Assembly (NCBI GenBank): GCA_951406725.2 | Contig: OX597827.1 | Span: 47,244,001-47,308,000 of the forward strand | Reading direction: 5' to 3' | Source of the DNA: Octopus vulgaris | Lineage: Eukaryota | Length of the DNA stretch: 64,000 bases | Shown: positions 21,405-54,649 of the stretch, piece after piece | Layout of the letters: each line of letters opens with the position of its first letter | Numbering within the stretch: the stretch's first letter is position 1 | Program-made: the position numbers and the translations under genes | The notes under the pieces: generated by a model | Databases searched by the model: none | What the model saw: the letters and a program-made list of their open reading frames with translations, nothing else | What the model was told of the DNA's origin: nothing

Positions 21405-21726
21405 ATATATATATATCATCAGTATATGATTTAACGTATTAAACACAATTCAACAAGTTTATTCATATTTATGTAATGCAGGAAATTAGATGTTAAAATG
21501 GATTATAGCTATTATTATTAATGTTGCTATAAAATTTGTTTCATAAAAACAGACTCAGATATTCATAATAGAAAATCGGAACGGTCAAATTTGTACTCGT
21601 CGGCAGCTGGGAAAGAAAACTAAAAAAAGACGTTAGAAGTACATAAATTTTTTCTTAGTAATCATATTGTATTAATGTGTTCGTTCTTGGACTCATGCCT
21701 ATTTTAAACAAGACTAAAATCTATAT

Positions 21727-22065
21727 TGCAGCGTGAAAGGTGTTTATAAGCCATTTAAGAAACACACAAAACCGTTAGATTCACTTCAACATTTAAATTT
21801 AATTTGTCAAAATATTTTCGCCGCTTTGAGACCGCGACCTGTTCACAGACAAAACTTCGTACTGCATCTCATGAAGTTTTGTCAGTGACCAGGTCGCGGT
21901 CTCAAAGTGACGAAAATATTTTGACAAATTAAATTTAAATGTTGAAGTGAATCTAACGGTTTTGTGTTTTTCTTAAATGGCTTATAAACACCTTCCACGC
22001 TGCAATTATTTTCGTTCCAGCACACGATCTCAGATCAAGTCAATCGCTATGCAAGTACATCTCCG
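21727..22065. mobile_element. Fold-back (palindromic) element with 12-bp target-site duplication; two HHR-like motifs
   Basis: Arms 21725-21858 / 21873-22006; TAAAATCTATAT at 21715-21726 and 22066-22077; related copy at 50196-50445. Confidence 0.85.
21878..21928 (+). ncRNA. Hammerhead-like motif, G3-C8 core variant (mirror copy at 21803-21853, minus strand)
   Basis: tttgtca-GTGACCA-g gtcgc ggtctcaaa gtgac-GAAAA-ta-TTT-tgacaaa; 7-bp helix I. Confidence 0.55.
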
Positions 22066-23406
22066 TAAAATCTATATAATTGGGTGCTAATATATAATAT
22101 TAAAAAACTGATATTCTCTGTATGAATTTCTATATGTGTGTTTATTTAAAACTCCGTAAAAGAATTATAGCAACTGGCCAGGCTGTATTTGTATTTACGA
22201 TGAGGAATCCAAATAAGGAAGTGAAAGAATTCTCAAATACAAATTTAGTTTTTACTTAACCGCCAATTATCCTTTCAACTTAAGAAATTATTAGAAAAAT
22301 GTTTAATAGTATTCAATAATAATTTCAGGTTTATAAAATTTATAATTTAAGTATAAATAATAGGACTACTATTCATAGATAACAATAAGTGTTATATGTC
22401 TTAATTATTTAGTAACAGTATAGGAAAGTTTTTAAGAAAATTTAGGAATATATATACATGCACACAGACAAACACACTCACACACATATACATATATATA
22501 TATATGTTCTTCGATTCACCAATACGCACGCATACGACGCACTCACCGATAACCAACCATGTACATACACACACGTAATTTCTTGTAACCTTGACATTTT
22601 CTACAGAGATTTCCTACATACATGTATCGCATGAGTGTATGCCTGTGTATATGAATGCATGTATATGTGTGTGATTATATTACAAGACAACTGAAGGAAG
22701 CATTACTTTAAATAAAACACCCACGCAAAGCTTTCAGACGCTGAAGTTTCTCTCAACCGATCACAGCAATCGCAAAATCTTCAACAATGAAAATATGCGT
22801 CCGGTAATTCATCGTAGAAAATTGAAAAAAGCAGGTGACATCGGTACGGCACAATAAGCATTTTCTATCAAAACATGGACGTCTAGTTACATTTAGTTCT
22901 TTTAAATTGTTCATGTATTTAGTAGCTGAACAATAGGTGTTCTTGTTGAGATATCTATACATAGATAAGCATCTGTGCATATACATACTCGCTAACAAAC
23001 ATTCACTCAAACATGTATGTATATTAACTTTATTCATGCATCTGAAAGCGTAGTTTTTTTTGTCATTGTCAGTAGTCTTATCTCTACAAACAGTGTTCGC
23101 TTTTTGCAGATTTTTGGATAGCCTGGAACACCAATTATTTGGCTGCAGGAAGAATGAGAAAGAGTGTTATTACCGAGAAAAAAAAAGTAAGATTTACTTT
23201 GCTAGGATGCGCAATTCGAGCGACTTACGTCACTTACACGTAAATTTCAGCATAGCATTCGTTCCGTGTGAGCGTATATATATATATATATATATGATTT
23301 TGATTTTGATTTTTCCAGTTTCAGCTAATGAGCTGTGGCCATGTTGGGGCACCGCCATTTATTTACATATTTATTTACATTTATTTACATATCTGTGTGT
23401 TTCTGT

Positions 23407-33350: not shown

Positions 33351-33519
33351 AATATTAGGGAATGAATCCAAAATTACAGGGAAAAATCAGATTTAGGGTT
33401 AAATCCAATTTTATAGTAAAATATTATATAATATAATTCGAGACAAAACCACTATTTTAAAATCAAACAAGGAAAGACTTAATCAATACATAAAATTTTA
33501 ATATAAATTAAATAAACCG

Positions 33520-33563
33520 CCACTACAATTGTTTCCTGTCTGCTACCGACATTCTTCAGGTGG
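33520..33563 (-). ncRNA. Minimal hammerhead ribozyme
   Basis: ccac-CTGAAGA-a tgtc ggtagca gaca g-GAAAC-aatt-GTA-gtgg. Confidence 0.8.
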
Positions 33564-33628
33564 ATTTTCGATCTTCTAATCAGTATCAAATTACTTCATA
33601 ATTTGATACTGATTAGAAGATCGAAAAT

Positions 33629-33671
33629 CCACCTGAAGAATGTCGGTAGCAACAGGAAACAATTGTAGTGG
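33629..33671 (+). ncRNA. Minimal hammerhead ribozyme (inverted duplicate, 1-nt deletion in helix II)
   Basis: ccac-CTGAAGA-atgtcggtagcaacag-GAAAC-aatt-GTA-gtgg. Confidence 0.75.
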
Positions 33672-33752
33672 CGGTTTATTTAATTTATATTAAAATTTTA
33701 TGTATTGATTAAGTCTTTCCTTGTTTGATTTTAAAATAGTGGTTTTGTCTCG

Positions 33753-50195: not shown

Positions 50196-50445
50196 AGCAA
50201 TTGAAGCTTCGAAGATATTTGTTAGCCATTCAAACAACAAACCGTTAGATTCACTTCAACATTTAGATTTACTTAGTGTCAAAACATTTTCGTTGCTCTG
50301 AAACCGCCACCTTTTCACTGACAAAACTTCGTGCTGCATCTGTGTGTTCTTAAACAACTTACAATCATATTCCACGCTGCAATTGTATTTGTTCCAGCAC
50401 ACGATCTCAGATCAAGTTACTTGCTATGCAAGAGCTTCTCCGTAA
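50196..50445. mobile_element. Second, older copy of the 21727 fold-back HHR family
   Basis: Shares AAAACCGTTAGATTCACTTCAACATTTA, GACAAAACTTCGT and CAGCACACGATCTCAGATCAAG...CTCCGTAA. Confidence 0.8.
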
Positions 50446-54608: not shown

Positions 54609-54649
54609 TATTCTTGACAAGTCATACAATGACGAAAACCGGTTGAATA
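54609..54649 (+). ncRNA. Minimal hammerhead-like motif, U3-A8 variant
   Basis: tattc-TTGACAA-gtcat aca atgac-GAAA-accggtt-gaata, followed by (TA)n. Confidence 0.55.

What the first reader, a model, noticed from the sequence alone, without database searches (positions are those of the whole stretch)
21803..21928. Rare G3-C8 swapped hammerhead core with a UUU cleavage triplet
Seen: both arms of the 21727 palindrome read GTGA(A/C)CA between helix I (7 bp tttgtca/tgacaaa on the plus arm) and helix II (gtcgc/gYgac), then GAAAA-ta-TTT. The 50196 copy has GTGAAAA. G3-C8 keeps the 3-8 pair; helix III is the palindrome AATATT. Inference: a third core chemistry in the same window.
Basis: partly seen in the sequence, partly recalled or inferred. 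Interest (0 to 1): 0.7.

Follow-up and report, generated by a model that had tools for sequence, protein, structure and literature searches.

The report
Swapped-core hammerhead in Penelope-like retroelement
A jumping-gene family with thousands of copies in this genome carries a hammerhead-shaped RNA motif in which two paired core letters have traded places while sister families keep the usual pairs; it likely still cuts RNA slowly in the parent elements, but cutting is untested and this particular copy is probably inert.

Summary
Window 21725-22066 is an inverted pair of 5'-truncated terminal repeats (pLTRs) of a Penelope-like retroelement (PLE). In full copies the repeat runs on into an RT + GIY-YIG ORF. 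G3-C8 is the family state: about 90% of 8,993 anchored copies, unchanged across three subfamilies (0 of 38 hammerhead columns differ vs 18 of 64 flanking). Sister families carry C3-G8 or U3-A8 at the homologous place, so positions 3 and 8 covary. UUU is not special: U17 is in 24 of 56 published PLE hammerheads. Cleavage is not shown: 77 of 88 copies extend 5' past the predicted cut, no RNA ends pile up there, and a transcript through this palindrome would bury the motif in a hairpin. The swap is known as a partly active lab mutant; my searches found no natural case in print, but one key paper was unreadable. This scan noted the swap before, twice in this genome and in two others.

The parts
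21870..22066 (+). 5'-truncated pLTR copy of a Penelope-like element, long (tailed) 3' end
   Evidence: 94-96% identical to top genomic copies; family ends here before AT-rich DNA; continues into the ORF in L183
21725..21869 (-). inverted second pLTR copy with the short 3' end; its 5' end lies at a splice-acceptor-like AG
   Evidence: self-match 92% over 284 nt; two 3'-end modes in the family
21878..21928 (+). type I minimal hammerhead motif, G3-C8 core, extra G after A9, 5-bp helix II, palindromic helix III, UUU triplet; predicted cut between 21921 and 21922
21885..21892 (+). core G3 U4 G5 A6 C7 C8 A9 plus extra G
   Evidence: family state has A7
21803..21853 (-). same hammerhead motif on the minus arm (G3 at 21846, C8 at 21841), with a U.U mismatch at 1.1-2.1
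   Evidence: its predicted fold is not the hammerhead
21977..22066 (+). first 30 codons of the PLE ORF, included in the pLTR
   Evidence: the same ATG opens the frame that runs into the RT-bearing ORF in L183
50199..50445 (.). older, decayed inverted pair of the same family (minus arm 50333-50199 with G3/A8 core; plus arm 50347-50445 starts 3' of the hammerhead)

Best explanation
This is an inverted pair of truncated terminal-repeat copies of a Penelope-like retroelement whose hammerhead motif has the 3-8 core pair swapped to G3-C8 throughout the family; in the parent elements it likely still acts as a slow, probably dimer- or protein-assisted self-cleaving RNA, while this copy is predicted to be inert. 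Shown: the motif lies in the pLTR about 55 nt before the ORF start of an RT + linker Zn-finger + GIY-YIG element; G3-C8 is the family state in old, middle and newest ORF-bearing subfamilies; sister families have C3-G8 or U3-A8 at the same place. Inferred: the 3-8 pair is kept because the active hammerhead fold is under selection in source elements; helix III forms between two copies through the 6-nt palindrome or with help from the element's protein; cleavage would fall after U17 and be slow. Most new insertions are copied from uncut RNA, so cleavage is not the step that makes the template's 5' end.
For: ORF link: L183 pLTR runs into the ORF and recurs about 4.3 kb downstream; GIY-YIG PF01541 above cut-off; about 20 copies at 97-99% RT identity; every full-length family arm the descriptor found in the five young ORF-bearing loci L180, L183, L193, L194, L195 and in L184 has a perfect G3-C8 motif. 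Fixation: 8,432 anchored matches with C8, 521 with G3 but not C8, 40 with neither; 96 of the first 100 C8 matches have G3 (counted by eye); 55 of 62 copies picked by a downstream anchor have G3-C8 and 60 of 62 UUU. Constraint: 0 of 38 hammerhead columns vs 18 of 64 other columns differ among three subfamily majorities, Fisher p about 1e-4. Covariation: in 11 aligned sequences the 3-8 pair is CG 4, GC 3, UA 3, unpaired 1; helix II and III pairs also change on both sides; 95.5% of cells paired vs 24-55% when slid; the C3-G8 sister ORF is 55% identical. Literature: the C3G/G8C double mutant partly restores cleavage in a PLE hammerhead that needs the element's protein (PMC11167929, passages).
Against: No cleavage data. 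Of 88 copies anchored downstream, 1 starts within 3 nt of the predicted cut, 77 start further 5', 10 further 3'. Three raw RNA runs of a related organism show both strands about equally and no piled ends (weak test). G3 is predicted to wobble-pair with U17 (probability 0.67), closing the core, and the helix III duplex alone is only -0.2 kcal/mol. The youngest copies of the sister family have C instead of A9, which suggests relaxed constraint in this clade. The 11 rows stand for about five families and are related, so the shuffle control is not a probability (pairs with both-side change: 63 of 500 shuffles as high). A 2-nt insertion in the old subfamily was counted outside helix I; the aligner placed it inside. 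Single G8C costs about 1e5-fold and is only partly rescued (PMC8495972, one passage).
Confidence: 0.62

Rival explanations
1. The motif is hammerhead-derived but no longer cuts; helices I and II are kept as a binding or folding signal for the element's protein, and the G3-C8 pair is a relic or a structural contact.
For: Insertions come from uncut RNA; predicted G3.U17 trap; A9 to C in the youngest sister family; hammerhead mutants did not affect insertion in vitro in another PLE (PMC11167929).
Against: Unpaired core letters (U4 G5 A6, G12 A13 A14) are invariant or nearly so across families and unchanged across three subfamilies; the 3-8 tertiary pair, which matters only in the active fold, covaries three ways.
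Confidence: 0.3
2. G3-C8 is a founder accident: one source element with two chance core changes amplified, and the apparent fixation only reflects common descent.
For: All copies descend from few sources, and per-site decay at 3 and 8 among copies (about 4-6%) is no lower than at neighbouring sites.
Against: The state persists through three successive subfamilies whose flanks changed and appears in contigs of other organisms (loose-end majorities for X16 and X17); two independent changes that restore a pair are unlikely without selection.
Confidence: 0.07
3. A chance look-alike of a hammerhead inside a palindromic repeat.
For: No hammerhead family among the 150 listed Rfam matches; folding z-score of the window arm is only -1.6.
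Against: 0 G3-C8 hits in 40 shuffles; position in a pLTR just before the ORF; canonical CUGANGA cores at the homologous place in sister families; z -3.5 for the young ORF-linked copy.
Confidence: 0.01

Closest known systems
Minimal type I hammerheads in pLTRs of metazoan Penelope-like elements (Cervera and de la Pena 2014, PMC4209133)
   Same: Type I topology, extra nucleotide between 9 and 10.1, G10.1-C11.1, short palindromic helix III, place in the pLTR, thousands of truncated and opposite-strand copies, U17 common (24 of 56 rows of Fig. S3 by my reading; UUU in the Crassostrea row), U3-A8 covariation known.
   Different: None of the 56 rows has G3 (53 C3, 3 U3); the extra nucleotide is G here, while their consensus is H.
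PAc (Poseidon) hammerhead of Anolis and its C3G/G8C laboratory mutant (Frangieh et al. 2024, PMC11167929)
   Same: Hammerhead next to the ORF start inside the pLTR, discrete 3' ends inside the ORF's first codons, AT-rich targets, uncut RNA as main template; the double mutant has the same swapped pair.
   Different: There the swap is engineered and only partly active; here it is the natural family state. The ORF here has a CX3CxxC linker Zn-finger, which Penelope/Poseidon lack.
C-terminal-endonuclease PLEs of the Neptune or Nematis type (Craig et al. 2021, PMC8557442)
   Same: RT followed by a CX2-5CxxC linker and GIY-YIG with CCHH residues; partial tandems, inverted 5'-truncated copy, tail at one end, (TA)n bias.
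   Different: Clade not fixed by a tree against reference elements; the tail here is about 57 nt rather than 30-40.
Natural U3-A8 core variants (Perreault et al. 2011, PMC3088659)
   Same: Compensatory change that keeps the 3-8 pair.
   Different: That section reports only C3-G8 to U3-A8 at these positions; G3-C8 swaps purine and pyrimidine, with no wobble step from C-G.

Membership tests
Hammerhead ribozyme (type I) | Three-way junction, helices I and II, U4 G5 A6, A9, G12 A13 A14, A15.1-U16.1, H17 | tested here: met
Hammerhead ribozyme (type I) | Watson-Crick pair between positions 3 and 8 | tested here: met
   G3-C8; covaries CG/UA/GC across families
Hammerhead ribozyme (type I) | Consensus letters C3 and G8 | tested here: not met
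   G3 and C8 in about 90% of 8,993 anchored copies; hence a variant of the consensus
Hammerhead ribozyme (type I) | Self-cleavage 3' of N17 | not testable with these tools
   Indirect looks gave no sign of cut ends, which does not exclude slow or assisted cleavage
Hammerhead ribozyme (type I) | Loop 1-loop 2 tertiary contact of fast hammerheads | not tested
   No loop 1 modelled; loop 2 varies among subfamilies
PLE minimal hammerhead | In a pLTR of an RT-bearing PLE, extra nucleotide 9/10.1, palindromic short helix III | tested here: met
Penelope-like element, EN+ with C-terminal endonuclease | One ORF with RT and C-terminal GIY-YIG | tested here: met
   PF01541 above cut-off at residues 915-1005; RT has no Pfam hit itself but shows a YVDD motif and aligns at 20% (E 9e-10) to a PLE ORF with an RVT_1 match
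Penelope-like element, EN+ with C-terminal endonuclease | Partial tandem pLTR-ORF-pLTR, inverted truncated copies, one-sided tail, AT-microsatellite targets | tested here: met
   L183; two 3'-end modes; flanks
Neptune or Nematis clade | CX2-5CxxC linker plus placement in an RT tree | tested here: inconclusive
   Linker present in the translation; no reference sequences for a tree
Non-LTR retrozyme | Short non-coding head-to-tail tandem units with canonical hammerheads | tested here: not met
   Copies are dispersed or inverted, end inside a PLE ORF and link to a coding element

The most novel reading that the evidence does not exclude
A natural, lineage-fixed G3-C8 hammerhead that really cleaves, in a PLE clade where sister families use all three of C-G, U-A and G-C at the 3-8 tertiary pair; descriptor searches that demand CUGA or UUGA would miss this whole class, and the clade is a ready-made series for testing what hammerheads do for Penelope-like elements.
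Probability: 0.4. Interest if true: 0.6.

Novelty: new variant of a known kind. Interest (0 to 1): 0.42.

Why it matters
The 3-8 pair positions the catalytic 2'-OH of residue 8. The G-C swap is a standard laboratory rescue, and a natural family that has kept it through several subfamilies would show that evolution accepts it and that ribozyme censuses undercount. Having C-G, U-A and G-C versions in related elements of one genome makes the open question of hammerhead function in PLEs directly testable. The chemistry and the element type are known, so this is a variant, not a new system.

Tried and rejected
Rfam scan of the window: listing swamped by microsatellite miRNA matches, no hammerhead among the 150 of 314 shown. 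The repeat finder: swamped by simple repeats. GIY-YIG family search returned mostly another PLE family (781 aa, U3-A8 core), not the parent; the parent was found through copies that keep the upstream acceptor-like motif. Search for 3' continuations with a non-A next base: 11 matches, none ran into the ORF. The first subfamily test gave p 0.47 because of an index bug; the fix gave 0 of 38 vs 17 of 64, but its groups were defined by flank motifs, so it was redone with groups chosen independently. A G3.G8 intermediate subfamily: 13 of 193 aligned arms have G8 but share no diagnostic site; not supported. U17 as a special adaptation to G3: sister families with C3-G8 or U3-A8 also have U17; rejected as specific, although a C17 would pair G3 more strongly. 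Run search: no RNA holder listed on record. PDB sequence search: 0 matches. Not held and so not read: Lunse et al. 2017, Przybilski and Hammann 2007, Martick and Scott 2006; file 1 of the PMC4209133 supplement was not searchable and part 3 of file 2 was not read.

Full report
Observation. On the plus arm helix I (21878-21884 with 21922-21928) encloses G3-U4-G5-A6-C7-C8-A9, one extra G, a 5-bp helix II, GAAA, a 6-nt palindromic helix III region and U17 at 21921. The minus arm has the same core with A7 and a mismatch at the base of helix I. The 50196 copy is an 80% identical relative with A8. A strict descriptor found only this site in the window; 40 shuffles gave 0.075 hits per window for any 3-8 pair and none with G3-C8.

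What the element is. A DNA search of the genome gave 3,582 candidates, of which 40 were scored, at 93-96% identity apart from the window itself. Copies are about 200 nt, often in inverted pairs joined at their 5' ends, flanked by AT repeats, with two discrete 3' ends about 57 nt apart. About 1,040 places keep an upstream branch-point and acceptor-like motif. Four of the 30 fetched had a GIY-YIG reading frame ending about 1 kb upstream. In L183 the repeat runs straight into the ORF from the ATG that lies at window 21977 and recurs after the ORF; that copy has a stop and frameshifts. [quoted passage not shown] About 20 copies are 97-99% identical in the RT, so the family was recently active. The nearest named protein relative is labelled Octopus vulgaris, so the host is likely an octopus. 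This is the anatomy described for EN+ Penelope-like elements (PMC8557442, passages; PMC11167929, first quarter and passages).

Is G3-C8 fixed? With flanks held constant, 8,432 places have C8, 521 have G3 without C8 and 40 have neither. By eye, 96 of the first 100 C8 matches have G3, giving about 90% G3-C8 overall. Losses at position 8 look like ordinary decay (60 T, 23 G, 17 A in the first 100, by eye). Among 62 copies chosen only by a downstream anchor and covering the core, 55 are G3-C8 and 60 have UUU. The informative test is between source lineages: majorities of 10 ORF-linked arms, 39 arms near the window copy and 31 arms near an old copy differ at 0 of 38 hammerhead columns and 18 of 64 other columns (p about 1e-4; only three related lineages; a 2-nt insertion in the old group was counted outside helix I). 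The element is also held by runs of other organisms, with the same core in the loose-end majorities of X16 and X17.

Covariation. Of 14 fetched places lacking both G3 and C8, eight belonged to other families by their downstream sequence: seven C3-G8 and one U3-A8, sharing the same helix I 5' strand that the pattern demanded. A wider pattern showed abundant families with U3-A8, with C3-G8, and with C3-G8 plus C9. The last sits before a 1,312-aa ORF 55% identical to ours, and several others are followed by similar N-terminal codons. On an alignment of 11 sequences the 3-8 pair reads CG 4, GC 3, UA 3, unpaired 1; two helix II pairs and one helix III pair also change on both sides; 95.5% of cells pair, against 24-55% when partners are slid. 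The rows are related and stand for about five families, and the two U3-A8 rows are out of register beyond helix II, so this is descriptive support, not a significance test.

How it likely works. From established hammerhead chemistry, G12 is the base and the 2'-OH of residue 8 the acid (PMC6155905, passage); the 3-8 pair positions residue 8. The swap keeps both. The C3G/G8C double mutant is partly active in general (PMC8495972, passage) and in a PLE hammerhead that cleaves only with the element's protein. Helix III here is too weak alone (duplex -0.2 kcal/mol) and G3 is predicted to wobble with U17 (0.67; 0.985 if C17, 0 if A17), the mirror of the C3-G17 trap discussed in PMC3884650 (two passages). 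So I infer slow, assisted cleavage in tandem source elements. Against a central role: 77 of 88 copies start more than 3 nt 5' of the predicted cut, 1 at it, 10 beyond it; three raw RNA runs of a related organism show both strands and no piled ends. The same was reported for the Anolis element. The window copy itself is predicted inert: RNA across the palindrome folds as one hairpin (-210 kcal/mol) with essentially zero probability of helix II.

Comparison with what is known. PMC4209133 (main text parts 1-2 of 4, supplement file 2 parts 1-2 of 3) describes the extra nucleotide, palindromic helix III and U3-A8; of its 56 representatives 53 have C3, 3 have U3, none G3, and 24 have U17, one with UUU. 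PMC3088659 (section 8 and passages) reports natural U3-A8 only at these positions. Eight searches (listings and abstract starts seen) turned up no natural G3-C8 family. Passages of PMC6765202, PMC13282606, PMC11014351 and bioRxiv 10.64898/2026.07.22.740005 added none. Lunse et al. 2017, the largest survey of small PLE hammerhead variants, was not held, so absence from print is not established. Earlier scan notes report the same swap twice in this genome and in two other genomes; I had reached my reading before looking and they are not independent support.

Verdict. A real, family-fixed, compensated core variant of a known ribozyme in a known kind of retroelement. New variant of a known kind; interest 0.42; 0.6 if cleavage is shown and it is not already in print.

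Noticed in passing
window 21867-21869; loci L304-L393: 5' ends of copies pile up at the AG of a 3' splice-site-like motif about 58 nt upstream of the predicted cut (38 of 88 within an 8-nt span), with no shared upstream exon seen. May reflect a spliced or otherwise processed template; the donor site was not found.
   Followed up: partly
L181, L182, L189 (G000 C15, C17, C1): Very young sister PLE family with a 1,312-aa ORF in many near-identical copies; its hammerhead has C at position 9, while other copies keep A9.
   Followed up: partly
L140:1576 in runs X21-X23; L203, L250, L251, L264: An A17 (UUA) variant in about 13-18% of reads of a related organism and in 4 of 34 old-subfamily arms, none of the other 159; A17 would remove the predicted G3-N17 mispair.
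   Followed up: partly
window 54609-54649 (+): Separate repeat family with a U3-A8 hammerhead-like motif and palindromic helix III; relatives seen in L156 and L192.
   Followed up: no
window about 33360-33750: Another long inverted pair with a C3-G8 core near 33633 and an 8-nt palindromic helix III, GUA triplet; helix II is imperfect in this copy.
   Followed up: no
L094, L099, L199 and others: A 781-aa PLE family with many intact copies, U3-A8 core, and in L199 a second 479-aa open frame just upstream and overlapping.
   Followed up: no
L148 (G000 C2:213175500-213184500): Three copies of the short pLTR at about 2.6-kb spacing inside a larger tandem duplication without a PLE ORF.
   Followed up: partly
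L150:5540-6256 (-): A 239-aa frame that looks like a Tc1/mariner transposase (recalled resemblance, not searched) next to a PLE insertion.
   Followed up: no
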